Shown here one piece after another: positions 2,422-61,391 of a stretch of 64,000 bases of DNA. Position numbers and translations under genes: made by a program. The first letter of the stretch is position 1, and every line of letters starts with the position of its first letter. The stretch comes from Callorhinchus milii (Eukaryota). The notes under the pieces are model-generated. The model searched no databases and was not told where the DNA came from. It saw nothing but the letters and a program-made list of their open reading frames with translations. Location: positions 42,720,001 through 42,784,000 of the forward strand of contig NW_024704742.1 of NCBI RefSeq assembly GCF_018977255.1, written 5' to 3'.

Positions 2422-2844
2422 AACAACAACAACAACAACAAGATTCCATTTATAGAGCGTCTTTCACGTCGGGAGGACGTCCCAAGGCGCTGTACAGTTG
2501 GGTCAGGACCCGAGCAGGGGGGAAATGGTCAGGGTGAGGGGAGGGAAGGGAGGGAGCGAGGAGGGGGTAGAGAGTCGAGAGGGGAGCTGAAGGCTCGGTC
2601 AAAGAGAAAGGTCTTGAGACCGGCTTTGAAGGAGGAAAGGGAGGAGGCGGCGAAGGCACTGGGGGATGGAGTTCCAGAGCCTATGGCCTGAGAGGCTGAA
2701 GGCCCGGCCAGCGATGGTAGGGCGGTTGGGGCGGGGAATGTGGAGCAGACCGGAGCCAGAGGAATAGAGGGTAAGGGCAGGTAGGTAGGGGGATAGTAGG
2801 TCGGAGAGGTAGGAGGGAGCAAGGCCGTGAATGGCCGTGAAAGT
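2422..2844 (-). mobile_element. Young L2 LINE 3' fragment
   Basis: (AAC)n tail on +; the minus frame gives FTAIHGLAPSYLSDLL...GRAFS...LWNSIP, the L2 ORF2 C-terminus; terminal stem-loop gggacgtcctcccgacgtg. Confidence 0.93.
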
Positions 2845-3581
2845 AGGATCGAAATAGTACTGAAGACACATTCATGATTTACTATCCCTTTCTTACATAA
2901 AGTACCTTAATGCATGTCCACAAAAGGGAAAGTGGGATCATTCAATGAGAAGGAGAAAATAGCATTGTTAAAGGAGCAGCCCTTTTACAAAATGCAGTAA
3001 CAGCACATATGATAAGGTCTTTCCTCCTGTGTTTATTCTGAGGGAAAGGAAACTGACTTATTTTGCTTACGAAATGCAACTATTGTACAAAAGAACACAT
3101 CCTGCCGTTGTATACTATTTATACATCAGTGGGTTTTGTTGTTTGAATTCAATTTCATTTTTGTTCAAAAAAAAGTAAAGTCACTTTAGTTTGTTTGATA
3201 CAGGTAAAATTTGTGAGAAGGGCTGCTCTTTCATGCCTCCTGGTGGCTCTTTCAAACATGGCAGAGAAGGCAACTTTGAGCATTCTGACCAATCACCTCC
3301 TCAGTTGCTGCAGATACAAGACTAGAAAAAGAGAATGTGGAAATGTACAACTTAAATACGCATATTCTTCAATAATAGAAAACTTTGCACATATGCACAT
3401 TCTTTCCACCCTATGAACTTGATTTTATTGTCTCTAGATTGCCACTTTGTAGTGCAAATTTGACAGGGGCGACTTTTATAGACTGTGGTTATTCGCTTTT
3501 GTGGACATGCATTAAGGTACTTTATGTAAGAAAGGGATAGTAAAGCATGAATGTGTCTTCAGTACTATTTCGTTGCTACTT
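2841..3581. repeat. 86-bp inverted duplication (arms 2841-2926 and 3496-3581)
   Basis: Manual reverse complement shows only about 3 mismatches between the arms. Confidence 0.95.
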
Positions 3582-3659
3582 CCAATTCGGGGTCCACAGC
3601 AATTGATGATTCAGGAGCAGTAATCCCGAATCATCTCAAGGCTTAACTAGGGAAACCCC

Positions 3660-4187
3660 CCAGAGATCATCCAGAACTCTGCAGCTAGTATCCTCTCCCG
3701 CACCAGGCTCCGTGAGCCCATCACCCCCACCCTCGCCTGGCTCCACTGGCTCCCCATCCCTCAGAGGATAAAATTAAAAATCCTCGTCCTCACTTTCAAG
3801 GCCCTCCATGGCCTTGCCCCCTCCTACATCTCTGACCTGCTGACTCCCTACCAACCTGCCCGCTCCCTCCATTCAGCGGGCTCCGGTCTGTTCCGTGTCT
3901 TCCTCCCAATACGCCCTACCATCGGCTGCCGGGCTTTCTGCCTCTCTGCCCCCACCCTTTGGAACTCCATTCCACAATCCCTTCGCCTCACTCCCTCTCT
4001 TACCTCCTTCAAGGCATGACTCAAGACTCTCCTTTTCGACCGAGCTGCCCTCCTACCCCCTCTGCCCTCCCACATCCCAACCCTCCCCCCACCATGCTCA
4101 GGTCCTGATCCTCGACTGTTCAGCGTCTTGGGATGTCCTCTCAATGTGAAAGACATTTTACAAATATAATTTTGTTGTTGCTGTTGT
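3660..4187 (+). mobile_element. L2 LINE 3' fragment
   Basis: IIQNSAA..HWLPI..KILVLTFKALHGLAP coding remnant; ends in a (GTT)n tail. Confidence 0.92.
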
Positions 4188-5444
4188 AATGTATAGAAAT
4201 GAATCTGATCAGAGCCAGCAAAGAAGCCTGAGATCTTCTTACCTGCACATCTTGGTGTAAACTCTGATGCCTTTACCCATTAGCCAATCAGAAGATGCCA
4301 AACATACTCGTTCTTTTATTTTATAATAGATAGAAGAATTCATATTAAAACATCTTGTAATTCAGGAAATTCTTGGAATACATACGTAATAGATTCATCA
4401 TTATCTGAAGAGCTCTGCCTAAACTATCCAGATTAATTCGTTCTCTTTTGGGGAGGCTGGCAATTCTCACCTTTGTCGATAGTCATATTTCTTGCCATCT
4501 CTAGGCAACTTATAGAATTAACAGTTAACATGTGCCAGTTTGATTCCTCCATCTCAATGGTCTTTGGGACAATTTTTCATTATTTCAGACAATTGGATAA
4601 AGTCATTGCTTTAGAGAAATATGATTTAAGCAATTATTACAAGATTATTATCAAATCCAACTCTGCACAAAGTAAAAGCCAATTTTGTGGATAATGCACA
4701 CCTAAAATAGAAAAGTCATCAAATTCAACATCCAAGAAATATAAATTTAAAACTTATTTGCTTAGGAATCAATGTGAAATGTCAAAATATGGAAATAAAT
4801 AACATAATGTCCCATTTGAAACACCAGTAATTGTTTTGGCTGGAAAATCATAAAAGCTATTTTATATTTGCATTGGATTGTTTTCCTATTTGAACAACAT
4901 TTTTTTTATAGTGGAGACGGAAAATCGGTGCAACCAAAGAAAAGATAATGAAAATCCTTTCAGATTAATGACTGCGAACAATTCCATTAGACAATTTCTT
5001 CCCCACTATTCCACTGCTCTCCAGGGCTGAAACCACCACCAAAAATAACTTGCATTTATATATCGCCCTTCACACTGGATAACGTGAAAACTAAGTGAAA
5101 ATCATACCAATTGCTCTCAAGCATGTATGTCTTAGTGCTACAGCGAGCATTTTCTTTTCTCACAAGGTCATCAAGGGAATCAAACAAAACTTTTTAATGC
5201 ATACATGGATGACTTTAAGATAAAACAGCTTGTAATTCAGAAAGAGTTGGGAATGCACAACAGATCAATCGTCATCTGAAATCAAAAATAGTTTAAGATT
5301 TTAATGTGACCCTTTACTTTAATCCAAATGGTGATCCTCTTTGAGATACCAACCAACTTTCAGTTCATTTCTAATATGTTCTAGTTTTATTTCAGAGTTC
5401 CAGTTTATTTTTCTTTAATTTATAAATTACAGTATAACAGAGCT

Positions 5445-5490
5445 CATGGTGATGGGTTTCCGCATGTTTCAGACACCCAGCCTACCACGA
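5445..5490 (+). mobile_element. Short 3' remnant of the unclassified poly(A) retroposon
   Basis: catggtgatgggtttccgcatgtttcagacacccagcc matches the terminus of the 30690-31272 element. Confidence 0.6.
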
Positions 5491-7306: not shown

Positions 7307-7321
7307 CCTCCTTGTTCCCAC

Positions 7322-9305
7322 AACAACAACAAAATGACATTTATAGAGCGCCTTTCATGTCGGGAGGACGTCCCAAAGCGCTGAACGGTCAGGTGTCGGG
7401 GCTGGAGCATGGGAGAGGGGTGGAGTAGGGGTGAGGGAAGGCAGAGAGGTGGGAGGGAGACCAAAGGCATGATCGAAGAGAAGAGTCTTGAGACCGGCCT
7501 TTGGCCTTGAAGGAGGCAAGGGAGGAAGAGAGGTGAAGGGACCGTGGGATGAAGTTCCAGAGTGTGGGGTCAGAGACTCTGAAAGCCCAGCCACCGATCA
7601 TAGGGCTGGTCGGGTGGGTGACATGGAGCAGACCGGAGCCCGCTGAATGGGGGGAGTGGGCAGGTTGGTAGTGAGTCAGCAATTCAGAGAGGTAGGAGGG
7701 GGCAAGGCCATGGATGGCCTTGAAAGTGAGGATGAGGATCTTGAATTCGAAACTCTGGGGGATAGGGAGCCAGTGGAGTCGGGCGAGGATGGGAGTGATG
7801 GGGTCACGCAGCCTGGTTTTGGATGATCTGCAGCTTGTGAAGGGAAGAGTTGGGAAGGCCGATGAGGAGGGAGTTCCCGTAATCAAGCCTTGAGGTGACG
7901 AATGCGTGGGTGAGGGTTTCGGCAGCCTGAGGGGTGAGGCAGTGGCAGAGTCTGGCAATGTTGCGGAGGTGGTGGTAGGCAGTGCAGGTCATGGCGCGGA
8001 TGTGGGGGAGAAAGGACAGTTCAGGGTCAAACAAGATACCCAGGTTCCTGACTGGCTTAGTGAGGTTGAGTGTGCAGCCGTGGAGGCTGATGCTGCCAGC
8101 GCCCGAGGTGCGGAGGTGCTGGTGTGAGCCAATCAGGAGGGCCTCGATCTTGTTGATATTGAGTTGGAGAAAGTTGACCCTCATCCAGGACTTGATGTCG
8201 GACAGGCAGTTGGTCAGGACGCCAGTAATCCTGGAGTTGAGGGTGGAGGCAGAGAGGTAGAGTTGGGTGTCATCCGCATACATGTGGAAATTTACCCCAT
8301 GTCTGCGGATGACATCACCAAGGGGGAGCATGTAGAGGGTGAAGAGGAGAGGACCAAGGACGGAGCCCTGAGGAACACCACACGAGACGGTGCGAGGGTT
8401 GGAGGAGAAGCCATTTGCCGTGACGAAGTGGAGGCAGTGTGAAAGGTAGGACCTAAACTAGTCAAGGACAGAACCTTGAAGGTTGAGGTGGGAGGAGAGG
8501 CGGTGGAGGAGGATTGAGTGGTCCACGGTGTGAAAGGCGGCGGAAAGGTCCAGGAGGATGAGAAGCCAGAGGGAGCCCTGGTCACACATGGTCAGGATGT
8601 CGTTTGTGACCTTGACCATGCTGTGGGCAGCACAGAAACCCGATTGGAGGGGTTCATGGAGGGAGTGGGAGGAGAGAAAAGAGCGAAGCTGGACGGCAAT
8701 GGCTCTCTCAAGGACCTTCGATAGGAAGGGGAGATTTGAGATGGGCCGGTATATAGATGGCTGTGATGGGTCGAGGGAAGGTTTCTTCAAGGTGGGGCTG
8801 ATAGTGGCTGTTTTGAGGGGGGAAGGAACAGTGCCAGATGACAGGGAGAGGTTAATGATGTCGGCGAGTAGTGGGACAAGGAGGTGGAGCTGGGATTTAA
8901 GGAGAGGGGTGGAGATGGGTCCAGGGAACAGGTGGTGGGCTTCATGGAGGTTACCGTGTTGAAGACAGAGGAGGGGGTGACAGGTTCAAAGGTGTGGAAG
9001 GAGGGATGGGTAATTGTCGGATGGGTAATTGTGTGGGGTGGGGGTAGGGAGGGGTTGGAAGTTGGGAGGGCAGTGGCAGCTGAGCAGATTCTCTCAATTT
9101 TGGACTCAAGGAAGTCCAGCATTGTCTCGCAGTGAAAGTCAGAGGAAAGTATCTGTGAGGCGTGTCGTGGAGGAGCCGGTTAGTGATGGAGAATAGGAGC
9201 TTGGGATTGCCTTCTGCGTCCAGGATTAACCTGGAACAGAAAGATGATTTGGCTGAGGCGAGAGCGGAGCGGTAGTTCTTGATGAGGTCCAGCCAGATGT
9301 TGCGG
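7322..9305 (-). mobile_element. L2 LINE, ~2 kb 5'-truncated, with a disrupted reverse transcriptase
   Basis: ORF pieces [46 protein letters not shown]; several frameshifts; (AAC)n tail. Confidence 0.97.
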
Positions 9306-9339
9306 TATATATTTATACAGCGGTATATAAATAGATGCA

Positions 9340-12478: not shown

Positions 12479-13290
12479 TGTGTTCAGCCTGGCACAGTGG
12501 CAGCACTGTCGCCTCTGAATCAGAAGGTTGTAGGTTAAAGCCCCACATAGACTAAGATGACACTCCAATGTGGTGCTGGGGAGTGTCACATCTTCGGAGG
12601 TGCCGTCCTTCGGATGAAATGTTAAACCGCAGTCTCTCGAGGTCCTTGTACAGCTGGAAGTTAAAGATTCCTTGGCACGATTCAAAAAGAGGAGGGAGTT
12701 TATCCTAGTGTTCTGGCCAACAAATCGCTCAGATAAAATTGCTCACTCACTCCATGGTTATTTGTGGGATATTGCTGTGTGTAATTGGCTGCCTGGAAAG
12801 TCTGCCAGACAGTAATATCAGTGTCAAGCTATGGGGATTAAGCTGATTAGACTCCAACAGTACCCCAAAGCACACTCTAGGGTCCCCAAGCCTTGGCTCT
12901 TGCCAACTTGTGCCTAATACTTTCTGGAATTAGGCAAGCAGGCTAGGTCCCTCCAGGGAGAGAGTGTGCATCCCATTCCAACAAGTTATCTCTGGAATTC
13001 TCAGTTTGGTTTGGATACTCTTAAGCATGGTGAACCCACAACCCTCTGACTCAGAGGTGAGTGGGGACACTAACTGAGACAGGCTGACACTATGACCATC
13101 TAGCACAATACGAAGAAAGTTTCTTCTGCTGCGTGTGTCAGACACCCAGCTGCCCAAAACTAAAACACCCACAAAATACATAGTCAATCCTCTTCATGGT
13201 ATATCGTGTGAAGAGCCTTGAGATGCCTTGACGATGTGTAAGGCACTATGTAAAATCCAAGGACTATTATTTATTATTATTAATAATAAC
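12479..13290 (+). mobile_element. SacSINE1-like SINE split by nested insertions
   Basis: Head and body at 12479-12793; tail resumes ~13165-13290 ending in (TAT)n. Confidence 0.85.
12795..13165 (+). mobile_element. Unclassified poly(A) retroposon copy, itself interrupted by a minus-strand SINE head (~13033-13128)
   Basis: Aligns by eye to the reverse complement of 30698-31000; ends gtcagacacccagctgccc plus an A-rich tail. Confidence 0.85.
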
Positions 13291-15093: not shown

Positions 15094-15128
<35 letters not shown>

Positions 15129-15432
15129 CCTTGCATTTGATATAGCGCTTTTCACGTCAGGAGGACGTCCCAAAGCGCTTCACAGAACACACTGTAAAGT
15201 GAATTGACTGTATATTTGTGGGCGAACGCGGCAGCCAATTGCGCACAGCAATGTCCCACAAACAGTCGTAGATTGAAAATGACCAATTTAATTATTGTTT
15301 TTGGTTTTGGAGGGATTATTATTAGGCGTGTGGAGTAAGGAAACTTGCCCAAGGTTTCGCCCTGCCTGGAATTGAACTCAGGTCTCTCACTTGCAAAGCG
15401 AGTGCTCTAACCACTGAGCTACAGGACTCCAC
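15094..15432 (-). mobile_element. Full-length young tRNA-Ala-headed Deu-type SINE (SINE2-1_CM-like)
   Basis: Head gtggagtcctgtagctcagtggttagagcactcgctttgcaagtgagag with A/B boxes; Deu core; L2-like 3' end; (TAT)n. Near-identical to 51268-51593. Confidence 0.96.
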
Positions 15433-21116: not shown

Positions 21117-21117
21117 C

Positions 21118-26030: not shown

Positions 26031-27142
26031 CATTTTGACTCCCCAAGGAGAACAGTCACTAGACCAAAGACCAAACTACACTGCACCTCTCTGGTTACAA
26101 AAGGATAGTCAATACAACTCCAATATAGTCAAAATATACCTAAGTTAGCAAATCTAAAGAAATCATGGGAAGAATTCAGTAGTTAAATTACTAAAACGGT
26201 AATAGCTACTGGGGTGAAAATTGTAGTTTGCCAAAACCCATTCCATACCTTAAGTATTGCCACTGAAAATTAAGAAACACTTCATCAACTGGAAACTGTC
26301 CTTAGGGACAGGTGCAGACTTGAACATCCCTGACTTCAGGAGACTGACTGGTTTCTCCTTCAGGCTTCTTTCTCATTGTCAGTTTGACATTGATGTGCTT
26401 TTTGAAAAATAATTAGTGAAAGCCAATTTTTGAATTCCCAGCTGTTAGAACAGCTTTTAGAACTATAACCTTTTAATTTTAAAATTACTTAGCCAGTATC
26501 TGGCAAAGAAGCAGACAATCCACATTTGTGAGCCAATTAAAGACTTGGTCAAATAAAACAAAATGCAATTTTGCTTGTATCAATTGGTTCCCTTGAATGT
26601 ACTGTAATCGGTTTCCTTTCCTATGGACTAACAACAACAACAACAACAAGATTCCATTTATTGAGCGCCTTTCACGTCGGGAGAACGTCCCAAAGTGCTG
26701 TACAGTTGGGTCAGGACCCGAGCAGGGGGGATATGGTCAGGGTGAGGGGAGGGAAGGGAGGGAGCGAGGAGGGGGTAGAGTTGAGAGGGGAGCTGAAGGC
26801 ACGGTCAAAGAGAAAGGTCTTGAGCGGCCTTCAAGGAGGAAAGGGAGGAGGCGGTGAAGGCACTGGGGGATGGAGTTCCAGAGCCTCGGGGCTGAGAGGC
26901 TGAAGGCCCGGCCACCGATGGTAGGGCGGTTGGGGCGGGGGATGTGGAGTAGACCGGAGCCAGAGGAACGGAGGGTACGGGCAGGTAGGTAGGGGGATAG
27001 TAGGTCGGAGAGGTAGGAGGGAGCAAGACCGTGAATGGCCTTGTAGGTGAGGATGAGGATCTTGAATTCGATCCTCTGGGGGATGGGGAGCCAGTGGAGG
27101 CGAGCGAGGGTGGGAGTGATGTGGTCCCGAAGCCTGGTGCGG

Positions 27143-27314
27143 ATCAGGAGGACAGACCGCCAACTCGCAGCAGGACTGTTGGGACAGTATCATCGACTCG
27201 ATAGCTAAACCCACATCACCGTTACAGTGGTCCAGAACAGTCTGCAGCAACTCCGGATTCTGTTGTGGGAACGCGTGGCAGAGCACCGCGAGGTGGGTCG
27301 GATACCCGTGGATG
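27143..27314 (-). pseudogene. Captured gene fragment resembling a DMRT-family DMA (CUE/UBA-like) domain
   Basis: Open frame IHGYPTHLAVLCHAFPQQNPELLQTVLDHCNGDVGLAIESMILSQQ matches the DMA pattern L..hFP.Q....L..VL..C.GDV..AIE; CpG-rich; no homology to the surrounding L2 or SINE. Confidence 0.75.
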
Positions 27315-27424
27315 TACAGTCAATTCACTTTACAGTCTATTCTGTGAAGCGCTTTGGGACGTCCTCCCGACGTGAAAAGCGCTATATCAAATGCAAGGAT
27401 TATTATTATTATTATTATTATTAT
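27315..27424 (+). mobile_element. Young SINE 3' tail fused to the DMA-like fragment
   Basis: Nearly identical to the 3' ~110 nt of SINE 51268-51593, including (TAT)n. Confidence 0.95.
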
Positions 27425-27829
27425 AGTACACGAGCTGCAGAGTTCTGAATGACCTGCAGCTTGTGGAGGGAGGTACCGGGAAGGCCGGCGAGGAGAGAGT
27501 TCCCATAGTCCAGCCTTGACTAAAGAGAGTGATGTGAAAATGCTCTCAATCTGCCAATACTTAAAATATTTTGAAAAATACTACAGTTATGGTACTTAAG
27601 TTAGTGCATTTAGCTGCACAGAAAAGTTGAATTATTGGTAAAACCAGTGCAGAACTCATTGTTCCAACAGAGCCACAAATCGATTACCTTGTAATAATGT
27701 CTGATACAATCTACCAAAATGTTTAATGTCAGTTTTCATCTCAAGGTCTTCAGTTGACAAATTTCATCATCACCAATGTGCACAGTATCAGCTGTAGTAG
27801 AAAACTCTTAATATCATAGTCAGCTTTTA

Positions 27830-30579: not shown

Positions 30580-31500
30580 ACACTCCAGTGCTGGGGAAAC
30601 ATTGCATCGTCTGAGGCGCCATCCTTCAGATGAGGCATTAAACCCAGGTCTTGTTTACCTATTTACATGGATGTTAAAGATCTCATTCCTTTTTTTTGGT
30701 CAGCTGGGTGTTTGACATATGCGTAAACCCATCACAATGCTTAAGAGTATCCAAACCAAGCTGAGATTTCCATGCATCCCACCTACATATGGAAATCTCA
30801 GAGATAGACTGTTGGAATGGAATGTACACTCTCTCCCTGGAGGGACGTATCCTGCTTACATAATTCCGGAAAGTATTAGGCCCTGGTTGGCAAGAGCCAA
30901 GGCATGGGGACCCCAGAGTGTGCGTTGGGGTACTGCTGGAGTCTAACCAGCTAAAACCACATTGCTTGCCATTGATATTGATGTCTGGCAAGCTTTCCCA
31001 CTGCTTGTTCAGCTAGGACTACCCTACCCATTAAGGCTTTGGCTTGCAGGGTTAACACGAGGTCGGTGGGATGACTCTGTGCCTCCAGACTGGTCTGCCG
31101 TTCCAGGTCCTGCCGATGAGCCAGGCTGGCTGTGATGACATCAGCAGTGCCCTGGAATACTGCGGACCCACCTGGCTCAGGAACCGGACTATCGAGCCCA
31201 ACACAGAGGGCTGACTCAATTCCGACATTCCATTCTCAGGCATGTCACCTTGGAGCCTGTTCAGTTCAAAGGAGATCCCACTTATCTCCCCAACCCCACA
31301 AGGACACTATTCTAAAAGAGAAGGAATTTTTTTCCGGTGCATGGCCAACAATCTCCCAGATAAAACTGGTCATTCGCTTTATGGCTGTATGTGGGGATTG
31401 CTGTGTGGACATTTGTTGCCATCTTCAACAAAGTACACTTTACAATAAATCTTGTGAAGTGCTGTGAGAAGTCTCAACAATATTCTTTATGATAATAATT
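30580..31500 (+). mobile_element. SacSINE1-like SINE split by the unclassified retroposon
   Basis: SINE body ends at gatgttaaagatctcat (~30687) and resumes at ggacactattctaaaagag (~31302). Confidence 0.8.
30690..31272 (-). mobile_element. Unclassified poly(A)-tailed structured retroposon (longest copy in the window)
   Basis: The T-run on + is poly(A) on the minus strand; terminus ...acacccagctgacc(A)n; TSD-like agatctca/agatccca; internal hairpin with a 13-bp stem; homologous to about 7 other loci. Confidence 0.85.
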
Positions 31501-31944: not shown

Positions 31945-32125
31945 TTTTCTTTGGTCAGCCGGGGGCCTGACACATGCGGAAAGCCATCACTGTATTTAAA
32001 AAAGGGTATCCAACCCAGATAGAGTTCCGCATATGTAAGCCACTATGAATGGCAATTTCCCTGTATCTGGATTGGAATGCGCACTTTCTCACTGAAGGAA
32101 TACACCCGGCTTACTTAATTTCAAA
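31945..32125 (-). mobile_element. Unclassified poly(A) retroposon 3' remnant
   Basis: tttctttggtcagccgggggcctgacacatgcggaaagccatcac. Confidence 0.8.
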
Positions 32126-32129
32126 TAGA

Positions 32130-32290
32130 ATTATAATAACAATCCTAGCATTTGATATGGCGCTTATCACATCGTCGAGACGTCAGTAAGCGCTTCACAG
32201 AATATACTGTAAAGTGAATTGATTGTGTATTTTGTGAGCGAAACACAGCAGCCAACTGCACACAGGAATGTCCCACAAACAGCTATGGAG
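32130..32290 (-). mobile_element. SINE 3' part
   Basis: aatcctagcatttgatatggcgc...gcgcttcacagaatatactgtaaagtgaattg...aatgtcccacaaacag. Confidence 0.9.
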
Positions 32291-33375
32291 TTCATGAAAG
32301 GTGCTATATAAAAGTGATTTGTAGCTGTTTTTTGTTTTGCAAGATCCTTTGCTCTTATTCTGATTCTTTCTATCTTTTTCTGTATTTTTTTGGTAGCTTT
32401 CCCCCCTTTTCCAATTTTTCGTCTTAAATTCTTTACTTGACTAGAACCATTTTGTTTCAGTTTCATCAACTCGTCATACTCTGAACTCAAAACTTTAGGA
32501 CTCTCATTGACTTCATCCTCTCCCATTTCTTGTTGCTTTTGTTCAAATTCTTGTTTTTCCATTTCAAATTTGACAAGATCCATTTCATCTCTAGGAAATT
32601 TAGCGCCTGTGAGGGCAAGATTATTTTTATCATCTTCTATATCTTTTTTCGCTACGGCAATCCCCTTTTTTAAATCTTCAATCTTTTCCTCAACACTTTT
32701 CTTTGTTTCTATTGGTGTGGTTACTTTGCCTTTATCTGTGTCCAAATCTTCCTTTTTGGGCTCTTTCTTCTGCTGTTTCTTTGTCTCCTCGTGTTTTTTT
32801 CCCATCGCTGATCTTGATTTCTCCATTGCTGTCACTGTCATTGCCCATACTGCTAGAGATTGAAGCTAACCTCTCGGGCTTCGGTCTCCTTCCTTGCGGC
32901 GTTGGCTTCTTCTTCTTGGCCACTGGCTCCTTGCCTCTGGGAGGTTTCTTCACAGAATCTGATCAGTACCATTGCATCAATCAAGTACTCATCTTCCTCA
33001 TCACTAATAGAGGATTCCTGATCAGAGCTGTCCAAGATTCCATGTTACTTTGATCGCACTTGATCTATCCTGGTTCTCTGCTGTTTGCTTGTCATTTTAT
33101 AATCTTTCTGTTCTGTCAGCTTTTCTCCTGTGTTCCTCTGGCATAGTTCCTTACAAGTTCTTGTTGTCTACTCTTGCCCATACTGGCTGCACACATAACA
33201 TTTCCCGTCTCCTGCTGGACCTCTCCGTAAAGGATGCAGTAACCCATATTTGTCACAGGTATCCTCTTTTATACTTCCTGGTCTTCTTTCATTGGTTTCC
33301 AGTTAATTGTTTATTTACTCTTATTGGGTTATTGAACAGTCTGTCATTGTCAATGTTTCAGTTGGATTTATAGGT
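32291..33375 (-). pseudogene. Gypsy-type gag C-terminal fragment: degenerate double zinc knuckle, acidic linker, long K/E-rich coiled coil
   Basis: TCDKYGLLHPLRRGPAGDGKCYVCSQYGQE*TTRTC (33153-33260) lies in the same frame as DSSDQESSISDEEDEYLIDAMV; frameshifts then lead into ~170 open K/E-rich codons. Confidence 0.65.
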
Positions 33376-33475
33376 ACAACAATAACAACTTGCATTTATA
33401 TAGTCTTCTTCACGCAGGGTAGCGTCTTGGAGCATTTAACAGAGCTTGATGCTGAGCTGGGGGGAAGTGACTGTA
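33376..33475 (-). mobile_element. L2 (second family) 3' tail
   Basis: acaacaataacaacttgcatttatatag..cttcacgcagggtagcgtc. Confidence 0.85.
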
Positions 33476-34099
33476 AGGAACTTATGTTTTTCTGTGCTAA
33501 CCCGATTGTCTTGTTATCACTGGTGTAGGCATTACTGTATTTAAAGCACGTCTGAATCTCCAATCCCAAGGGTGCAACACAATAAGGGGCACCAGCCACA
33601 TTGCCCTTTTTCTATTCTCTAACCTGCAGCTGCTGGTAGGTACCAGTTTGCTCTCACTCAGTTCAACAGTATATTATGCTTTTGGGGCTTCTCATTGGAA
33701 TTGACAAACTTATATAAAAATTGCTTTACCTTGAATTATATCCTTGGTTTAATTGTGAATGGATAGTGTTACTCAATTCTGAGTAAGATTGTATTTGGAT
33801 TTTATAGTAAACAAATGGCATTTAAATCAAGTTAATATGTTAATTCAATCTACAGGGAATATTATTGTGATGCATACTGGAGATTGGTTTGTATTGGAAA
33901 CAACATTTTTTTGACCAGATTTTATGATGGCATATGATGAAAACCAGACTGAGAGTTCTACATATGCACACCACCAATGCATAATTTTTATCTGGAATAG
34001 AAAACACACTCTCTCACTCAGAGAAATGCACACTGTTCACCTAATTCCAGAAAGTATTAATAATCCATGCATTTGATATAGCGCCTTATCCGTATCTCA

Positions 34100-34238
34100 G
34101 ACACCAGCAGCATCGATGAATGCACACTGCACCTCACCAAGCCAGTCAGGAACCTAAGCATCTTGTTCGACCCTCAATTGTACTTTCTCCTCCACATGTG
34201 TGCCATGACCTGCACTGCCTTCCACCACCTCCACAACA
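34100..34238 (+). mobile_element. L2 internal fragment
   Basis: aagccagtcaggaacctaagcatcttgttcgaccctc ([15 protein letters not shown]). Confidence 0.75.
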
Positions 34239-34344
34239 TTCTGACGAAGGGTCATGGATCCAAAGCATTGACTTACTTTCCTATCTCCATAGATGCTGCC
34301 TGACCTGCTGAGTGTTCCCAGCGACTTCTATTTTTGTTTCAGAT
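34239..34344 (+). mobile_element. Penelope-like pseudo-LTR remnant with a decayed hammerhead core
   Basis: ttctgacgaagggtcatggatccaaagc...agatgctgcctgacctgctgagtgttcccagc; same family as 47024-47236. Confidence 0.8.
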
Positions 34345-34700
34345 GTAGGTCGGCAAGAGTCGAGTGTTAGAGGAACCCAGAATGTGATGGTGTACTGCTG
34401 GAATTTAACCAGCTAAAACTGCATAGATTGTTAGTGTAAACACTGTCTGGCAAGCTTCCTGCTGCGCCTCCAGCAAGGAGCAATCTATCTGCTAAGACTT
34501 TGGCTTGGAGGTTTAACAGCAGCTGAGTGGGAAGAATCCCTGCCCCAAGTGATTTAGTCTGTACTCCAAGTCGGACTCCCTGGTCTTGTCATCAACAGTG
34601 CCTTGAAGTACTGCAAACCCTCCTGACTCAGCAGCCAGACTACCAAGATTCTGCTATTCCACTGCCATGCCTGATACTTTGGAGCAATCTCAGACCTGCT
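34345..34700 (-). mobile_element. Unclassified retroposon, internal/5' portion
   Basis: ggtcggcaagag...gtactgctggaatttaaccagctaaaac...ctggcaagctt; colinear with 30885-31260. Confidence 0.8.
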
Positions 34701-36474: not shown

Positions 36475-36905
36475 TTATTATAAGAATCCTTGCATTTGAT
36501 ATAGCCTTGGGATGACATCTCAAAGAGCTTCATAACATTCACTGTATATTTTATCAGGGAACACAGCAAGCAAATTGGTTGCTGTGTTCCCTTACAAAAT
36601 GCACAGCGAACTTACAAGATATCCCACAAACAGCCATGAAAGTGAATAGCCTGTTTGATCTGGGGGGATTATTGGCCAGGACACCAGGAGAAACTTCACT
36701 TTCAAAAAGTATATGGGATTTCTTTAATATCCCCTTGAACAGGCCTCAGTTTAATATCTCACCCGAAGGATCTCACCTCCAACAATGCAATATTCCCCAA
36801 TGGAGTGTCAGCCTAGATATGTAAGTTCAAAGTCCTGACCTAGGACTTGAATCCATAACCTTCTGACTCAAAGGTGACAGGACTATTAAGGCAGCCAAAT
36901 GATAC
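36475..36905 (-). mobile_element. SacSINE1-like SINE
   Basis: Tail, body and head (ccttctgactcaaaggtg) are recognisable. Confidence 0.85.
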
Positions 36906-47023: not shown

Positions 47024-47236
47024 ACAAAAACAGAAGTCGCTGGGAACACTCAGCAGGTCAAGCAGCATCTACGGAGAAAGGAAAGTGAGTCAATGTTTTG
47101 GGTCCATGATCCTTCATCAGAACCTGAAAAGTTGACTCACTTTCCTTTCTCCATAGATGCTGCCTGACCTGCTGAGTGTTCCCGGCGATTTCTGTTTTTG
47201 TTTTCAGATTTCCAGCATCTGCAGTATTTTGGGTAC
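47024..47236. mobile_element. Penelope-like element end with an inverted 5' arm; hammerhead-like core at the centre
   Basis: 70-bp inverted arms (47024-47093 and 47132-47201); the minus-strand centre reads ctgatgaaggatcatggacccaaaac. Confidence 0.85.
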
Positions 47237-49378: not shown

Positions 49379-49597
49379 CACAGTCAGTAAGTTTCCAATA
49401 TTTCTACTTGGTTGTTGATTCCTGATCAAGTAAGAAGGGGGAGGTGATTGTAGGTGTGGTAGAAAAAGTAGGTTTTTAAAAAGGATAAATTTACTTGGCA
49501 GAATTTACAAATTTAATAACAAAATATTTGGATCTCACATACCAATTAGATTCGGAATCAAGAACCAAGTAGAAATATTGGAAACTTACTGACTGTG
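49379..49597. repeat. 44-bp inverted duplication (arms 49379-49422 and 49554-49597)
   Basis: One mismatch between the arms on manual reverse complement. Confidence 0.93.
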
Positions 49598-50621: not shown

Positions 50622-50818
50622 TGTTTTTTTTAGGTCAGCCGGGTGTCTGACAAATGCGGAAAACCTTTGCCACGCTTAAGAGTATCCAAACCAAGATTTA
50701 CATGCATTTCCACGCTGCTTGTCCAGCTAGGACCAAACGACCCGAAAGGGGTTTAGCTTACAGGGTTAACGGGAGCAAAGTGGGATGACTTTATGCCCCC
50801 AGTGACTGGTCTGGCCTG
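50622..50818 (-). mobile_element. Unclassified poly(A) retroposon, internally deleted copy
   Basis: ttttttttaggtcagccgggtgtctgacaaatgcggaaaacc...gcttaagagtatccaaacc...gctgcttgtccagctagg. Confidence 0.85.
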
Positions 50819-51267: not shown

Positions 51268-51593
51268 GTGGAGTCCTGTAGCTCAGTGGTTAGAGCACTC
51301 GCTTTGCAAGTGAGAGACCTGAGTTCAATTCCAGACAGGGCGAAACCTTGGGCAAGTTTCCTTACTCCACACAGAGCCTAATAATAATCCCTCCAAAACC
51401 AAAAACAATAATAAATTGGTCATTTTCAATCTACGACTGTTTGTGGGACATTGCTGTGCGCAATTGGCTGCCGCGTTCGCCCACAAATATACAGTCAATT
51501 CACTTTACAGTGTGTTCTGTGAAGCGCTTTGGGACGTCCTCCCGACGTGAAAAGCGCTATATCAAATGCAAGGATTATTATTATTATTATTAT
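51268..51593 (+). mobile_element. Full-length young tRNA-Ala-type SINE inserted into a CR1 3' end (~51143-51263, minus)
   Basis: Complete head, core and tail; flanking atagt duplication; the CR1 3'UTR resumes after the tail. Confidence 0.96.
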
Positions 51594-51635: not shown

Positions 51636-51915
51636 AACAACAACAACAAGATTCCATTTATAGAGCAACTTTCACATCGGGAGGACGTCCCAAGGCGCTG
51701 GACAGTTGGGTCAGGAACCGAGCCTTGGGGGGAAAATGGTCAGGGTGAGGGGAGGGAAGGGAGGGAGCGAGGAGGGGGGAAATGGTCAGGGTGAGGGGAG
51801 GGAAGGAAGGGAGCGAGGAGGGGCGAAATGGTGAGGGGAGGGAAGGGAGGGAGCGAGGAGGTGGTAGAGAGTCGAGAGGGGAGCTGAAGGCATGGTCAAA
51901 GAGAAAGGTCTTGAG
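51636..51915 (-). mobile_element. L2 3' end with a triplicated ~45-bp purine-rich segment
   Basis: gaaatggt(cagggt)gaggggagggaagggagggagcgaggag occurs three times. Confidence 0.93.
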
Positions 51916-53041: not shown

Positions 53042-54178
53042 CATAGAATTACATATAATATACAGCACAGAAACAGGCCATTTGGCCCAACTGGTCTATA
53101 CCGGTGTTTATGCTCCACATGAGCCTCTTCCTGTCTTTCCTCAACTAAGTTTATCAGCCTAATCTTCTATTCCTTTCTCCCTCATGTACTTATCTGGCTT
53201 CCCCTTAAATGCATCTATTTTGTTTGCCTCAAGTACTCCTTGTGGTAGTAAGTTCCACATTTCCACCACTCCCTGGGTAAAGAAATTCCTTCTGACTTCC
53301 CTATTTGATTTATTGGTGACTATCTTACAGTCATGGCCCCTGGTTTTGGTCTCTTCCACAAGTGGAAACTTCTCTATGTCTACCCTGTTAAAACCTTCCA
53401 TAATTTTAAAGACCTCTATTAGGTCACCCCCTCACCCTTCTCTTTTCAAGAGAAAAGAGTCCTAGCTTGTTCAACCTTTCATGATAGGTATAAACTTGCA
53501 GTTCCGATATCATCCTTGTAAATCTCCTTTGCACCTTCTCCAGTGCCTCTATATCCTTTCGATAATATGGGGACCAGAGCTGTACACAGTACTCCAAGTG
53601 TCTAACCAAGGTTCGATATAAGTTCAGCATAACTTCCCTGTTTTTCATTTCTATCCCATAGAAATGAACCCCAACACTTGTGGGGGGTTTTATGGCCTTA
53701 TTAACCTGTATCGCTACTATTAGCGATTTGTGTATCTGTACACCTGGATCCCCTTGCTTCCTTACCCCATTTAGATTCTTATTTTCCAGGCAGTACGCGA
53801 CCTCCTTACTCCTCCTACCAAAATGTACCACCTCCCACTTATCTATATTGAAGTTCATTTGCCAATTAAATGCCCATTCAGCAAGTTTATTAATGTCTTG
53901 TAATTTGTTGCAGTTCTCCTCAGTATTAACTACATCCCACAATTTGGTGTCAGCGGCAAATTTTGAAATTGTACTTTCGATCCCGAGACCAAATTGTTAA
54001 TGTAAATTGTGAAGAACTAATCGGTTCCAATACCGATCCTTGTGAAACACCACTGCCCATCCTCTGCCAGTCTGAGTAGCTACCCTTTACCCCTACTCTC
54101 TGTTTTCTGTCTTGTAGCCAGCTTGCTATCCATTCTACTACTTTTCACCTGACTCCACATGCTGTGACCTTATTCATT
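53042..54178 (-). mobile_element. CR1 LINE, ~1.1 kb with RT C-terminus
   Basis: KFAADTKL (decayed KFADDTKL), WQMNFNIDKW, LYRTLVRHLEYCVQLWSPY, TRGH..RRNFFTQGVVEMWNLLP. Confidence 0.96.
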
Positions 54179-54782: not shown

Positions 54783-54905
54783 ATGTCAGCCTGGCTCAGT
54801 TGGTGTAAATTATACAGTCACTACACCTTACAGTAAGATCAGGTTAGGCACTTTAAGATGTCCTCTTAATGTGAAAGGCACAGTATCAAATGCAAAGATT
54901 ATTAT
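54783..54905 (+). mobile_element. Internally deleted SINE (head joined to tail)
   Basis: tgtcagcctggctcagttggt followed directly by atacagtcactacac...tatcaaatgcaaagattatt. Confidence 0.65.
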
Positions 54906-55952: not shown

Positions 55953-56486
55953 CTGGGCCAAAAGAAAAGTGAGTCCACACTTTTTCCGCAGAATCCACTA
56001 CGAACGCTCCTCTGCTACAAACACCCCACTCCATTACAAACCTGTACACATAGTGTGCTAGGCCCTGGGTGTCTCGCACTGTTTGCTCGACGCTACTACT
56101 GTGTGCAGAGCGGCTCCGGTCGCATGTGCGCGGGGTTTGTTGGGATCGCGGAAGCGGCGCGAGAGGGTAATTGGCTTTGCCAGCTAGTGAGTGTACCACA
56201 ATAGAATTACCAGCTTGCGTGACACTACTGCTGTCTATTTGCTAAACCCCAGCCTAAACTGAGCTCCTGCAAATAATTCTTGATAAGTGCTGTACTATTC
56301 AAATTAGCATTTTTAGTATTTTAAACAGAACTACATGTTTAATTTTTATCAATAAAGTGAAAACATGTAGGTTAACAGCATAATGCGTCTTTCAATAGCA
56401 CCAATCTACCCTCCGCAATTTTCCGCAAAACTTTTCACACTTCTCTGCATTTTGGCCAATATTTCCGCAGTTTTCTATCAGCCCAG
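55953..56486. mobile_element. Non-autonomous TIR DNA transposon, hAT-like (8-bp TSD GTCATTAC)
   Basis: Perfect TSD at 55945-55952 and 56487-56494; imperfect TIR ctgggccaaaagaaaagtg / ctgggctgatagaaaactg; repeated subterminal TCCGCA; inserted into an old L2. Confidence 0.85.
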
Positions 56487-59389
56487 GTCATTACCCCAAA
56501 GTCCCATTCATTTGCTCCACACTTGGTGATTTCCATCCGCCTTGAAAAACACTGAGAGATATTTACCCTACGTTATCGGTGCAGAATTTTTTAGCGTTCA
56601 ATTCACAAAATAAATAGCACAGGAGCACAAATAGCACAGGAATGCTGGAGACTCATGTGGAGTATAAAAACTGTGTGGATTATTTGGACCAAACTTGTGC
56701 TGTAATTCTGTATGTAAGTTAACCGTAGTTTTTGTTGGAGTAGTTTTAAGTTGAAGTTAAAACAAGCAATTTACTGACCCGTTCCTACTGAATAAGAATA
56801 GCAGAAACAGGAAAAGAGATTGGGCGCAAAGCTGCCTCATATTCTTGTGCTACTCCAGGCTGATGCAACCATTATTTGGGTTACAGCCAAAGTGTCAAAC
56901 CTTTCACCCAGACATCATCATTTCATGCATTTTAGCTGCATATCATATGTAAAATTATATTGTTATTTTTTCCATGCACGTGCAGAAATAATTGCCAGAA
57001 ATCTTTTAGAAACAAAGGACTAGGACTCTTAAGCACTGCCGTATGAATAATGCTCTTTATCAAACCAGCATAATTGTTCTCTCCCCTTCAAAAACCTGTA
57101 AGCAACATCTCTCGAATACAAAGGAACGCAAAGATCAATAGCAATAAGCTAAATGCTGACTACATTACACTATATTCTGGTCTTGCTTGGATCTGTGGAA
57201 GTGAATACAAATGACTCACAAATTCTAAAATAAATAGGACATGCAATATTTTCACTCATGAGCAGATTGACAAAGGCCATTTGCAAGTTGATAGTGCATA
57301 AGTTATCCAGTTGCACCATTAAATTATTTGCTATATTCATTTCTCCCCTGATGCACTTACTCTACCAGTGCAGATCAAGAGAACTGTGTAATTATCATTA
57401 AACCAAAACATAACATAAATAAGGAACATAGATTGTTTAAAATAGATTGAATGAAATGAATGACTTAATCTATCAAATCTTTCTTTAAGTATCTCTGCAT
57501 TTAGGTTTTGTCATATTTAATAAACATGCTACTTTTAATCCACAAGGTGGAGCTGGAGTCTACCAATAGTGATACAGCCAATACACTACATAAAGAAAAA
57601 CAATCTATGCACATCTGGAACTGCATGGTTTATATTCATCTCGATGCCAACTCCTGAATTCATAACAGAAGAATAATAAAAACTGAGCAATTAACTGCGA
57701 GAGCATCCTTAATAATGAATACCCCTAACCTGTAATTAAAGGGGAGGGGGAAACTATGTAATATTAGTGGATTGAATATTCATTCTTGTCAACTATACAA
57801 TTGGTGATCTGTAAAGAATACAAATTTCAGCAGGATTGTGGCCCGCTTTGGTTCTTTAATATTTGTTTTACATGGATGATCACTGAAGACAGGTAGAGAA
57901 TTTATTTCAGCTGCAAGCTCAATGACACCTGGAGAGACTTGAACATCTTCACAGTGCTGAGTTAACGATACACAAAAGGCTTCAATATCATGACTTACTG
58001 CAGCACCAAAGCTCTTAAAAAAACAATAAATTATAATGAAGTATCATGCTATTTAACATCATTATTTTGTAACTAATTGTAATGTTAACTTCACACAATA
58101 TGAACATTTGCCTTCCTTTGCAAAAAGAATTCTGTTGTCTGTTTTGCTTTTAAAAAAAACTCCCAGAGTAAAATAGATTTTTTAATTGCACAAATATCTA
58201 AACAAATGGGGTAAAGGGATCAAGTTAAGCAGAAGCCATCTCTAACTTCTTGTAACCCGGCGAAAGTCTTTGAAGTACTTTTTGTTTTAAACTTTGATAA
58301 ACGCTTGGATAACGACAAAAGTGAATGAAATTGGGTTGTGGAAGGCTACTATCTATAGCATTTTCTATGATACATGAGTACAAGATGGTATTTTTAAAAA
58401 TCTACAACTATTACAACAGATGGAATGATAAAAGGTCATTTGGTCCATCAACGTAATTCCATGCATAATGTTTGTTGTCACGGACTCAATTCAAACAGCT
58501 TAATTCTTGAGCTAGGTGGCCAAGAACAGGTTGCATTTCCAAGAGATAAATATTGACTAAAGTTCTCTGATGCCCTGGAAGTAATGTGCAAAAAAAACAG
58601 ATTATCAGTCTACACTACAACTCATACTGTTCAGCTCCAGTTACCGGTGTTCTCACGAGGAAACTGCTATAATTTCAGCAGAACAGAAGCCATCGCACCC
58701 TTTTTCATATTTTATCATTTCATCTTGAATTTTATTCATTATCCTCGATCTGATTTGAACAAGTACGAAAGTAGATCTTTTGTTTTCAATTGGACACACC
58801 ACTGACTGCTTTCATCTATTATCTGTTAATCTTGTATTCATGTTTGCTTCCTATGCTTACACACCATTCAATTTTCAATACTCTGATCATCTCTCAAATG
58901 AAAATAAATTCAGTTCCATGAGCTTCTCTTCAGAATTTAGAATCAAAAGATCTACAAATATCGCTGGTGCAGTTTGAACTTTCTAAAATGTAATAACATC
59001 CTCTCTGAAAGTAAACTGCATATAGTTGCATGAATATTCCAAATATTTCAGTTTATTCTATTAATGCCCACTCCAACATTGCCTGCACATTCTGGGAATG
59101 TCATGCAAAAGTGACAGTAGGATTTAATACCTGAATCAGCAATATTGTACTGACTTGGACTGTAGTAACCAAGTCACTGTTTTAGAATTATTGATGGACA
59201 TGATTTACCTACATTGTATTGACATTTTATGTCCTCTATCACATCCAGTTAGGACTGGATTTTATTCCACTCTTTCATACATATTCATCTGAGAATATTT
59301 CAAGGAATTTCAAAATGTGCCCTTGATGGAAAATGCTTGATTAAAATAGGCTTGTCTCCCTTACAATATGCCTTTAACTTTTTTATATT

Positions 59390-59720
59390 ATTTTTCCTTC
59401 TCTCCTGAAGGTGCTGCTGGGTATGCAATCAGACAGACCTCTAGTACTTCACAAAAGTGATGTTTACATTTGAACCCAGACAGTGACAATTAGAGGGCTA
59501 TTGGAAGGGCAGTCAAAGTCTAAGTGTTTTCTCATCCCCGGTCACAAAGTCACTGTCTAGAGGTAGGAATTCTGGTCGAGTTTGCCCTCCCTAGGCCTGT
59601 GGTGCTGAAGATAATTTAAATCCCCAAATTGCTTCTCAATCTGAGATCAGGGTCTTAGCACATTGGGTATCAAACTTGCAATCATCTTATGTTATGCCAG
59701 CTAGTGCCTTTACCTGTTAG
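59390..59720 (-). mobile_element. Ancient LF-SINE-like shark SINE
   Basis: ccttctctcctgaaggtgctg...ctctagtacttcac...gaacccagacagtga...ccctccctagg...ctgagatcag. Confidence 0.6.
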
Positions 59721-59790
59721 GTTGTTTGGCGGAAGCTAACTAATAACTCTTTATAAATTGTACAGTGTTTATTAAATCTTCCTCTCTTTA

Positions 59791-60002
59791 GGGTAGAAAT
59801 TTCATCTGGGTCTATATTTACTCTGGTCTCTTACAATTTTAGAATGACTAGAATGTGTCAAATTCTTAAATACAGCCATTCTTTCCAGAACTACAGAAAA
59901 TGGCTTCAAAGTTAATACTGAATTGAACACAATTTGCCACATTCTGCACACTTTGAAATGCTAAGAATATAGAAGAAATCTAAACCCAGGTGGAATTTCG
60001 CC
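59791..60002. mobile_element. Harbinger/Tourist-like hairpin MITE
   Basis: Follows TTA and starts gggtagaaatttcatctgggtc; ends aaacccaggtggaatttcgcc; ~75-bp imperfect arms. A right-half relative lies at ~52790-52893. Confidence 0.7.
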
Positions 60003-61391
60003 TTTTCTGTGCCTTCTCAGACTACATACTATTCGCCAAGCAAATGATCTCTTCACAAGTGCTGCATCTGTTCCATCTACATGACAATGCATAAAAGTAG
60101 CCTGAGATTGTCCGCTCATTGATTTTCCCTCCTTCTATTTAGCACCTCATCTGATAGCTTGAATGTGTTCAGCAACTGAGAATGGAGAAAATTGTCAGCC
60201 TGAATCTGTGCGGCATCATTCTTTAGTATAGGCCATTGGGGGACCAATCTTGTGGCAACAATAGATACATTGAAAACCATTCATCTCAGAATTTCATTGC
60301 TCAGCTAATGTTAATATAATATATACCATCACTTTTCTGGGTATGATAGATTGCTTATTTTTAAGCAACTTCACTTAATGTGTGACATTAAGAAAATTCA
60401 ATTTCTGAATCAGAAAGATATCAGAACGGTTTGCCAAAAAATATGCTATGTGTCTTGTGATGATTTAAACTATTATACTTACACTAGAATCCAATTTGAA
60501 ACCATTCTAAAAGGCAATAATAAAATAATTTCATTTGTTCACTCAGCGACAAGCACTGCAGCTGCTCATTAGAAGCTGGTCATTTATCACACAAATTGTT
60601 TTACACAGACACTCAGGAAACATATTGCTAAGTGCTCTGCATTTTGTATTTTACATCAGCTTGACCCTATGCATTGTGCATATTTCTACCTTACAAATGA
60701 GAAAAATATACGACTGCAATGAAACCACATTTTCTCAAGGGGACTTTACACCTTGCAGTTTGAATGAGGTTGTACCCAATCGAAAACAACAACTAATGTA
60801 CTTGCATTTATGACACAACAACAACTTGCATTTATATACAGTAAGCTTCAAGGTCGTTAAGTGCTTATGCGGTGAAGGATCCCTATCACTCTCCACGTGA
60901 TCAGGCATTCCTCGCCACCTCCACATGATTAGATGATGCTCTTTCCTCTCTCGGTCCCCCCCTTACCCCGTTGCTGTATGTGATGCCGTTGATGTTACAC
61001 CCCGGGTCGGACGACGAGGAGAGTGTCAAGGTGTGAATGTGAGGTGTTCCGTTTGAGGTAGGTGCAGGAAACTAAGTTTTGACCCAGCAGCTGCTAAGTG
61101 CAGCACTGGCGTTACGAGTTACACAATTATTAACACAGCTAATGCAAATAAATTTAAATGATTTAATAGGAAATTCAATGGGACTTGGGAGATGTATGAG
61201 TTAGGTGATTATATGGATTATACAGATCAGATTTATGTAAGCTTTCCTGTAGCTCCCTTCATTCAAGTATATAAAAACATAAAGGGATCTGTCTTGAATT
61301 AGGCTATTTCGGGCATGACTTTTTAATTTGGCTCAATTCAGGTTTAGATGCATTTTGTTCCAAATCATGGTTGTGTGCGTGAGATGGGGCA

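What the first reader, a model, noticed from the sequence alone, without database searches (positions are those of the whole stretch)
2422..61120. Recurrent foreign-sequence capture at 5' junctions of short L2/SINE tails
Seen: at least four cases in 64 kb where a short retroposon 3' tail is joined at its 5' end to unrelated sequence. They are the DMA-like fragment (27143), the gag-like fragment (32291), an exon-like GC-rich piece (60841) and an inverted copy of neighbouring DNA (2841). Knowledge: LINE 5' junctions can carry extra templated nucleotides from template switching or end-joining repair. Inference: in this genome the L2/SINE pair may act as a frequent gene-fragment shuffling system that captures 80-1100-nt pieces in either orientation.
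Basis: inference. Interest (0 to 1): 0.7.

Follow-up and report, generated by a model that had tools for sequence, protein, structure and literature searches.

The report
Host scraps beside truncated shark retroposons
Two of the four flagged spots are real one-off accidents in which a cut-short jumping gene was inserted together with a copied scrap of host DNA, one is unresolved and one is simply a DNA transposon, so this is a known by-product of retrotransposition and not a shown gene-shuffling system.

Summary
Two of the four cases hold. Site 1: a truncated L2 ends in a ~71-nt inverted copy of DNA 561 nt away, with microhomology at both ends. Site 2: a 160-nt antisense piece of a shark-type DMRTC2-like exon plus a young SINE tail interrupts an L2 copy, so both most likely arrived together. 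I found a fifth, 9-nt fold-back case (61674). Site 4 fails: the GC-rich piece lies in a 411-nt TA-flanked multicopy element that splits an L2 tail. Site 3 is unresolved: the part nearest the SINE is a decayed, probably spliced nexilin fragment (not gag), but an inverted L2 micro-tail lies between them and no empty site was tested. These structures match known 5' extra nucleotides of zebrafish L2, fold-back duplications at L1 ends and antisense L1-mRNA chimeras. Nothing shows re-mobilisation or function, so 'shuffling system' is unsupported. The open, bolder point is the rate of distant exon capture by a 'stringent' L2/SINE pair; it needs a genome, which was not held. The scan noted similar cases before on other DNA of this genome (NAF1, TSNAXIP1; unchecked).

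The parts
2422..2849 (-). Site 1: 5'-truncated young L2 3' end with (AAC)n tail
   Evidence: 93% to the L2 at 26630-27054 over 429 nt
2850..2930 (.). Site 1: inverted copy of 3492-3572 at the L2 5' junction; 71-77 nt copied, outer 10 nt (9 of 10 alike) read as priming microhomology; L2 end 2838-2849 pairs 9 of 12 with 3573-3584
3492..3584 (.). Site 1: donor arm in the 5' flank, 561 nt from the copy
26624..27154 (-). Site 2: host L2, 3' part
27155..27314 (-). Site 2: 160-nt stop-free piece of a DMRTC2-like (DM + DMA) gene exon, antisense to the SINE; left edge may lie up to 8 nt further left
   Evidence: Pfam DMA 39.9 bits; 54-55% to whale shark, bamboo shark and zebra shark proteins, E 1e-11 to 9e-11
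27315..27427 (+). Site 2: young 5'-truncated tRNA-Ala SINE tail with (ATT)n
   Evidence: 96-97% to SINEs at 15103-15215 and 51487-51593
27428..27585 (-). Site 2: host L2 resumes; ACA at 27152-27154 and 27428-27430 is a possible 3-nt target duplication
   Evidence: ORF2 frame match 27585-27433
32126..32292 (-). Site 3: older 5'-truncated SINE 3' part
   Evidence: 84.5% to the youngest SINE
32293..32339 (+). Site 3: decayed L2 micro-tail, inverted relative to the SINE
   Evidence: 81.6% over 38 nt, E 0.004; 15.8 bits against 9.3 in shuffles
32341..32571 (-). Site 3: decayed nexilin (NEXN) coding fragment, sense to the SINE, probably spliced across one exon junction
   Evidence: best hit C. milii nexilin, 60% over 80 aa, E 5e-13; 38 of 49 codons alike without gaps; junction inferred
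32572..33370 (-). Site 3: unassigned K/E-rich stretch and decayed Cys/His motifs (gag-like by eye only)
   Evidence: no Pfam, PDB, Atlas or homologue support
33375..33463 (-). Site 3: old L2 tail whose 3' end abuts the other side of the piece
60781..60838 (-). Site 4: 3' part of an old L2 tail (partly doubled), ending at a TA
60839..61249 (.).
61250..61262 (-). Site 4: second TA and the 11-nt continuation of the split L2 tail
   Evidence: 9 of 11 alike to other window tails; 0.14% of window 11-mers reach that
61513..61673 (-). New site 5: truncated young-family L2 nested in a SINE (61391-61883), GCA duplicated
61674..61682 (.). New site 5: 9 extra nucleotides, part of a 13-bp perfect hairpin (61673-61685 with 61692-61704) with the adjacent 5' flank
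   Evidence: DNA fold z -5.0, 0 of 200 shuffles

Best explanation
The real cases are dead, one-off by-products of 5' end joining during L2-driven retrotransposition. After target-primed reverse transcription stops early (inferred), the free target end opposite the cDNA anneals through a few bases to another template and is extended before the two ends are joined. If it folds back on its own resected strand, an inverted copy of the flank results (site 1, 71-77 nt; site 5, 9 nt: structure shown, fold-back inferred). If it anneals to a distant sequence, a foreign piece lies head to head with the tail (site 2: co-insertion shown by the interrupted L2; the template was most likely the DMRT mRNA, copied by a second priming, about 55%, or genomic DNA, about 45%: inferred). 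Site 4 is an unrelated TA-specific DNA-transposon-like insertion into an old tail. Site 3 is an old composite with a retrocopied nexilin piece whose link to the SINE is unproven (about 40%).
For: Position exactly at L2 5' ends, with microhomology on both sides of the copy. 2 of 40 5' ends, 0 of 40 3' ends and 0.33% of random positions have such inverted matches. Sites 2 and 5 interrupt older repeats that give the empty site, with 0-3 nt duplication. The L2 flank supplies the in-frame Pro-Pro that all three shark proteins have at that place, as expected if priming used that match. Same structures are published: flank-templated extra nucleotides at about 40-50% of zebrafish L2 junctions (PMC2666801, PMC4760211, PMC4245944), inverted duplications at the reciprocal end of L1 insertions (10.1101/2024.12.14.628481), antisense mRNA/L1 chimeras (PMC13174262). 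Site 4.
Against: No true empty allele or orthologue was seen for sites 1, 2, 3 or 5, and the DMRT donor was not found in this species (no candidate; no look-alike). The window's other unique inverted duplication (49379-49427 / 49549-49597) is not at a tail's 5' end, and earlier notes list several tail-free inverted copies in this genome (unchecked), so site 1 could be background. Cell assays saw no 5' inversions with zebrafish ZfL2-1 (PMC4245944), which speaks against second priming by an L2 enzyme.
Confidence: 0.7

Rival explanations
1. One reading: the L2/SINE pair is a frequent gene-fragment shuffling system; captured pieces ride with a recognisable tail, can be copied again and seed new genes or SINE heads.
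For: Two host coding pieces (DMRTC2-like, nexilin) lie next to SINE 5' ends in 64 kb; 3 of 7 young truncated copies carry templated additions; the site 2 tail keeps the full 3' end shared with L2; earlier notes report more cases (e1-7812105, e1-7811903; unchecked).
Against: Site 4 is refuted and site 3 is not a direct fusion. Each piece is single in the window; none has a promoter or is shown to be expressed; the DMRT piece is antisense to the tail. Copy number elsewhere in the genome was not measured for sites 2 and 3.
Confidence: 0.12
2. Break repair without target-primed reverse transcription: a double-strand break was patched by host polymerases with whatever DNA or cDNA was at hand, and the tails are just one of the fillers or later neighbours.
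For: Target duplications are 0-3 nt; fold-back and distant templated insertions form at plain breaks in yeast (PMC11724301, abstract); a tail-free inverted duplication exists in the window; site 3 is a multi-source patchwork; the related species shows a deletion with 17 filler letters at site 4.
Against: At sites 1, 2 and 5 the retroposon keeps its intact microsatellite 3' end on the far side and the extra piece is always at the 5' end (0 of 40 at 3' ends); short or no duplications are normal for L2 (PMC4245944).
Confidence: 0.13
3. Site 3 alone: one insertion built by successive same-strand template switches (SINE RNA, then nexilin mRNA, then a retroelement RNA), making it the largest true capture (about 1.08 kb).
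For: Nexilin piece is sense to the SINE and seems spliced; its decay (78% of codons alike, about 8-15% nucleotide change) is near the SINE's 15%; one frame is open from the K/E-rich part through to the SINE.
Against: An inverted L2 micro-tail lies at the junction and a second L2 tail abuts the far end, both with 3' ends facing the piece, as if it were their target; I saw no target duplication by eye; no empty site was tested; the piece could be a remnant of an element that took up nexilin earlier.
Confidence: 0.4

Closest known systems
5' extra nucleotides (5' EX) of zebrafish L2 elements ZfL2-1/ZfL2-2, 'annealing' pathway (PMC2666801 passages; PMC4245944 parts 2-3 of 5 and passages; PMC4760211 passages)
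   Same: L2-clade element, 5' truncation, short or no target duplication, extra sequence templated from the flank, microhomology. Site 5 is a textbook case.
   Different: Site 1 is 71-77 nt from 561 nt away and site 2 is from a distant gene; the passages I read give no length distribution, and the supplementary insert tables were not read.
L1 insertions with inverted duplication or inversion of genomic DNA on the reciprocal end (10.1101/2024.12.14.628481, passages)
   Same: Self-annealing of the resected target end opposite the cDNA gives an inverted copy at the 5' junction, as at sites 1 and 5.
   Different: Somatic human L1 in cell lines and tumours; here germ-line L2 insertions in a cartilaginous fish.
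Antisense mRNA/LINE-1 chimeric insertions ascribed to twin priming (PMC13174262, passages; 17 mRNA/lncRNA chimeras in hg38)
   Same: A non-first exon piece head to head with a truncated retroposon, inserted in one event (site 2).
   Different: Partner is a SINE tail moved by an L2 enzyme that needs its own 3' tail; duplication is 0-3 nt, not 7-17; RNA template not shown.
CmiSINEs (SINE2-1_CM, SINE2B-1_CM), SacSINE1-CM and L2-2_CM of Callorhinchus milii (PMC5499810, passages)
   Same: tRNA-Ala head, shared 3' tail with L2; about 303,000 and 218,000 copies reported.
   Different: I did not align to the published consensus sequences; in the passages found for 'chimer' and 'truncat' (0 hits for the latter) the paper does not treat junction captures.
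Non-autonomous Tc1/mariner (pogo/Tigger-like) DNA elements (recalled)
   Same: Site 4: TA duplication, CAG...CTG ends, many diverged copies, sharp terminus with varied flanks.
   Different: Only about 10 of 11 terminal bases are inverted-complementary in this copy; no transposase or named family was matched.

Membership tests
L2 5' extra nucleotides templated from the flank (sites 1, 5) | Extra sequence exactly at the 5' end of a truncated L2 with intact 3' tail | tested here: met
L2 5' extra nucleotides templated from the flank (sites 1, 5) | Extra sequence copied from the 5' flank, with microhomology | tested here: met
   site 1: 9 of 12 and 9 of 10 at the two ends; site 5: 13-bp hairpin
L2 5' extra nucleotides templated from the flank (sites 1, 5) | Absent from the pre-insertion site | tested here: inconclusive
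   met for site 5 through the host SINE; no empty site for site 1
Antisense chimeric insertion by second priming (site 2) | Partner in opposite orientation to the retroposon | tested here: met
   DMA frame on -, SINE on +
Antisense chimeric insertion by second priming (site 2) | Both parts arrive in one event | tested here: met
   host L2 rejoins with 0-3 nt overlap; paralogue-based, no allele seen
Antisense chimeric insertion by second priming (site 2) | Partner copied from RNA | tested here: inconclusive
   the piece seems to lie inside one exon (inferred from where P0002-P0004 diverge), so it cannot show splicing
Antisense chimeric insertion by second priming (site 2) | Donor locus identified, with microhomology to the target end | not testable with these tools
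Sense template-switch chimera (site 3) | Partner is spliced mRNA in the sense of the retroposon | tested here: inconclusive
   sense shown; the exon junction rests on a one-residue Gln variant in 1 of 48 nexilins with the motif (3 of 51 lacked it) and a recalled human boundary
Sense template-switch chimera (site 3) | Direct fusion of partner to the truncated 5' end | tested here: not met
   inverted L2 micro-tail in between
Sense template-switch chimera (site 3) | Empty site lacks both parts | not tested
Retroelement gag (site 3, 5' part) | CCHC zinc knuckle or capsid match | tested here: not met
   no Pfam, PDB (57-59) or homologue hit; likeness by eye only
Tc1/mariner-type non-autonomous element (site 4) | TA target duplication and CAG...CTG ends | tested here: met
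Tc1/mariner-type non-autonomous element (site 4) | Dispersed copies with a common terminus | tested here: met
   other contigs at about 80-87% in all 4 runs; loose ends with unlike flanks behind 61251 in all 4
Tc1/mariner-type non-autonomous element (site 4) | Long terminal inverted repeats and a matching transposase | tested here: inconclusive
   about 10 of 11 terminal bases only, no longer arm; no Pfam hit in six frames of 60841-61121
Gene-fragment shuffling system (as 3' transduction, Pack-MULE or Helitron capture; recalled) | Captured piece is re-mobilised, expressed or fused into a gene | tested here: inconclusive
   each piece single in the window; genome-wide copy number and expression not measured

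The most novel reading that the evidence does not exclude
In holocephalans the 'stringent' L2 enzyme, once engaged on its own or a SINE's tail, often primes a second cDNA on unrelated mRNAs or switches among several RNAs, so that 1% or more of the roughly half a million SINE insertions carry a distant, partly spliced host exon piece: thousands of exon fragments, far above the 17 mRNA chimeras catalogued for human L1, some of them copied on through their tail.
Probability: 0.2. Interest if true: 0.62.

Novelty: new member of a known kind. Interest (0 to 1): 0.3.

Why it matters
As shown, it adds germ-line examples of known LINE junction chemistry in a cartilaginous fish and warns that exon-like scraps beside SINE tails can mislead gene annotation. 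If the rate of distant, RNA-templated capture proves high, it would show that an L2 enzyme held to be template-strict can copy host mRNA pieces once engaged, and this genome would be a large natural data set for how 5' ends of LINE insertions are joined.

Tried and rejected
Whole-genome work: no genome is held. DMRT donor in this species: no candidate among longer proteins (weak evidence); no look-alike in earlier notes; PDB gave nothing meaningful. Gag identity of 32572-33370: Pfam, PDB, Atlas and homologue searches blank (the uL13 rows, E 0.1 or worse, are taken as chance). Site 4 as a coding exon or structured RNA: Pfam six frames blank, Rfam nothing above chance, Atlas only unnamed phage-like clusters at 0.90 or less; no long near-identical donor among the listed contig pieces (913 shorter pieces not shown). 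Site 4 orthologue: organism B (run X12, one contig, about 92% alike) skips 60781-61242 with 17 other letters; at first sight an empty site, but it aligns again from 61243, inside the element's end, and keeps the tail remnant beyond, so I read it as a later deletion in B; polarity is not proven. My first in-silico removal at site 4 was two bases out of register and was redone. Site 1 as a MITE with 90-nt arms: no target duplication, single copy. The 17-nt match at 54784 was dropped as repeat-to-repeat. No RNA holder listed. The human NEXN exon 10/11 boundary could not be confirmed in print (only that c.1302 lies in exon 11).
Full report
Setting. The window is repeat-rich animal DNA (40% GC) with L2 fragments (RVT_1 hit) and tRNA-Ala-headed SINEs that share a 3' tail. 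The best nexilin hit is Callorhinchus milii and earlier notes call the genome elephant shark, so the elements are probably the CmiSINE, SacSINE1-CM and L2-2_CM families of PMC5499810 (passages read; not aligned). No genome was held, so tests rest on the window, protein searches and one laying of public contigs.

Baseline. From self-comparison I curated 40 truncated, tail-bearing copies. Each must border unrelated DNA at its 5' end, so the claim needs proof that the neighbour is foreign. I used three kinds: a match to a donor, an interrupted older repeat as empty site, and public contigs. Exact inverted matches of 13 nt or more within 1 kb start at 3 of 40 5' ends, 0 of 40 3' ends and 0.33% of 600 random positions; direct matches of that length at 0 of 40 for both ends. 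One of the three is a SINE head matching another SINE head and was dropped.

Site 1 (real). A young L2 (2422-2849, minus) ends in a copy of 3502-3572 turned round, 1 mismatch in 71 nt. The L2's last 12 bases match the donor's continuation at 9 of 12, and the 10 bases at the other end at 9 of 10. This is what follows if the target end opposite the cDNA folds back on its own resected strand, copies about 70 nt and is joined to the cDNA end (inferred). Against: no empty site, and the window's other unique inverted duplication (49379-49427 / 49549-49597) is not at a tail's 5' end.

Site 2 (real). The piece 27155-27314 is an open frame with a DMA domain (39.9 bits). Its true relatives among 14 hits are three shark proteins at 54-55%, one a full DM + DMA protein named DMRTC2-like; the other hits examined were CUE-repeat proteins. 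Piece and SINE tail (96-97% to the youngest SINEs) sit inside an L2 whose two halves rejoin with 0-3 nt overlap and whose ORF2 frame continues to 27585. So the piece does not predate the tail, short of two insertions at one spot. It is antisense to the SINE. The L2 flank supplies in frame the Pro-Pro that all three shark proteins have there, which suggests that the target end primed on the donor through a short match. Whether the template was mRNA or DNA cannot be told, as the piece seems to lie within one exon. The donor in this species was not found.

Site 3 (unresolved, and mislabelled). The last 230 nt before the SINE are nexilin: all 51 hits carry the nexilin domain set and are named nexilin where a name is given, best C. 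milii, 60% over 80 residues, 38 of 49 codons in the best stretch. It runs without a gap across a place where one frog isoform has an extra Gln, the mark of a tandem splice acceptor, and where I recall the human exon 10/11 boundary; papers confirmed only that c.1302 is in exon 11. So it is probably a retrocopied mRNA piece, sense to the SINE, with a decay (about 8-15%) near the SINE's 15%. But an inverted L2 micro-tail lies between the two (15.8 bits; best of 5 shuffles 9.3) and another L2 tail abuts the far end. The upstream 800 nt show Cys/His motifs like a gypsy gag by eye (recalled pattern) but no search supports it. Co-insertion with the SINE is about 40% likely.

Site 4 (refuted). Contigs of 4 of 4 runs hold other copies of parts of this stretch at about 80-87%, several contigs link its parts in order, and loose ends with unlike flanks pile up behind 61251. 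In the window 60839-61249 begins CAG, ends CTG and has TA on both sides. Cutting it out with one TA extends the tail match in register, 17.4 to 31.7 bits, above all 150 random joins (best 25.8). The 'short tail' is thus an old L2 tail split at its TA run by a Tc1/mariner-type element (family label recalled). Organism B's orthologous contig lacks 60781-61242 and has 17 other letters, but aligns from 61243, inside the element's end; I read this as a deletion in B. If instead it is a true empty site, the block is an insertion in organism A, but the split tail, the TA pair and the lack of a close donor would still need explaining. Runs X1 and X2 hold the whole stretch in one contig each.

New site 5. 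An L2 (61513-61673) nested in a SINE duplicates GCA and has 9 extra bases at its 5' end that form a 13-bp hairpin with the adjacent flank. Among seven young truncated copies of 40 nt or more (2422, 26624, 27312, 28852, 51636, 61513, 63585; my selection) three carry templated additions, two of them over 50 nt; for the others none was evident, though a distant donor could not be seen from the window.

Comparison. About 40% of genomic ZfL2-2 copies have extra 5' nucleotides (PMC2666801, passages) and these are largely templated from flanks (PMC4245944, parts 2-3 and passages; PMC4760211, passages). Inverted duplications on the reciprocal end of L1 insertions are described (10.1101/2024.12.14.628481, passages), as are fold-back and distant templated insertions at plain breaks (PMC11724301, abstract). 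Antisense mRNA/L1 chimeras ascribed to twin priming are among 17 mRNA/lncRNA cases in hg38 (PMC13174262, passages). Against second priming by L2, no 5' inversions were seen with ZfL2-1 (PMC4245944). Supplementary tables of these papers were not read and may hold long or distant extra pieces for L2. Searches showed no paper on such captures in cartilaginous fishes; the library lacks most subscription journals. Earlier notes of this scan describe like cases in this genome (159-nt inverted copy 616 nt away at NAF1; a TSNAXIP1 exon with intron) and also several tail-free inverted copies; I did not check them.

Verdict. No piece is shown to be copied on, expressed or used. Interest 0.3; new member of a known kind. 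The bold reading, frequent capture of distant and partly spliced exon pieces by a template-strict L2/SINE pair, has about 20% and is directly testable on the assembly.

Noticed in passing
window 49379-49427 and 49549-49597: 49-nt inverted duplication of unique sequence, 94% alike, 121 nt apart, not at a tail's 5' end.
   Followed up: partly
window 47024-47201 and 34244-34344: 80-nt hairpin-shaped repeat with a second copy; looks like a Penelope-type stub (label recalled).
   Followed up: no
window 51728-51861: Young L2 tail with an internal 46-nt unit repeated three times, likely slippage during reverse transcription.
   Followed up: no
window 30690-31097, 12795-13159, 31945-32133, 33934-34544, 50625-50813, 63858-63999: An unnamed ~400-nt dispersed repeat, often inserted inside old SINEs.
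   Followed up: no
window 36538-36610: 36-nt hairpin with a 1-nt loop inside an old SINE, another possible fold-back scar.
   Followed up: no
window 60780-61243, run X12: The 17 letters that replace 462 nt in organism B resemble the SINE body by eye, a possible templated filler at a deletion.
   Followed up: partly
window 61160-61251: This end of the site 4 element has far more relatives than its middle in all four runs, suggesting a large family of short derivatives in both species.
   Followed up: partly
window 55955-56240: A CpG-rich ~280-nt unique piece after an L2 fragment, with no Pfam hit in the one frame tested; another candidate inserted piece.
   Followed up: no
P0004 (zebra shark DMRTC2-like): Carries DM, DMA and DMRT-like domains together; the donor gene seems unannotated for this species in the searched set.
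   Followed up: no
window 7315-9300: 2-kb L2 fragment with RT domain, frameshifted; 53159-54000 holds a CR1-like ORF2 fragment (label by eye).
   Followed up: no
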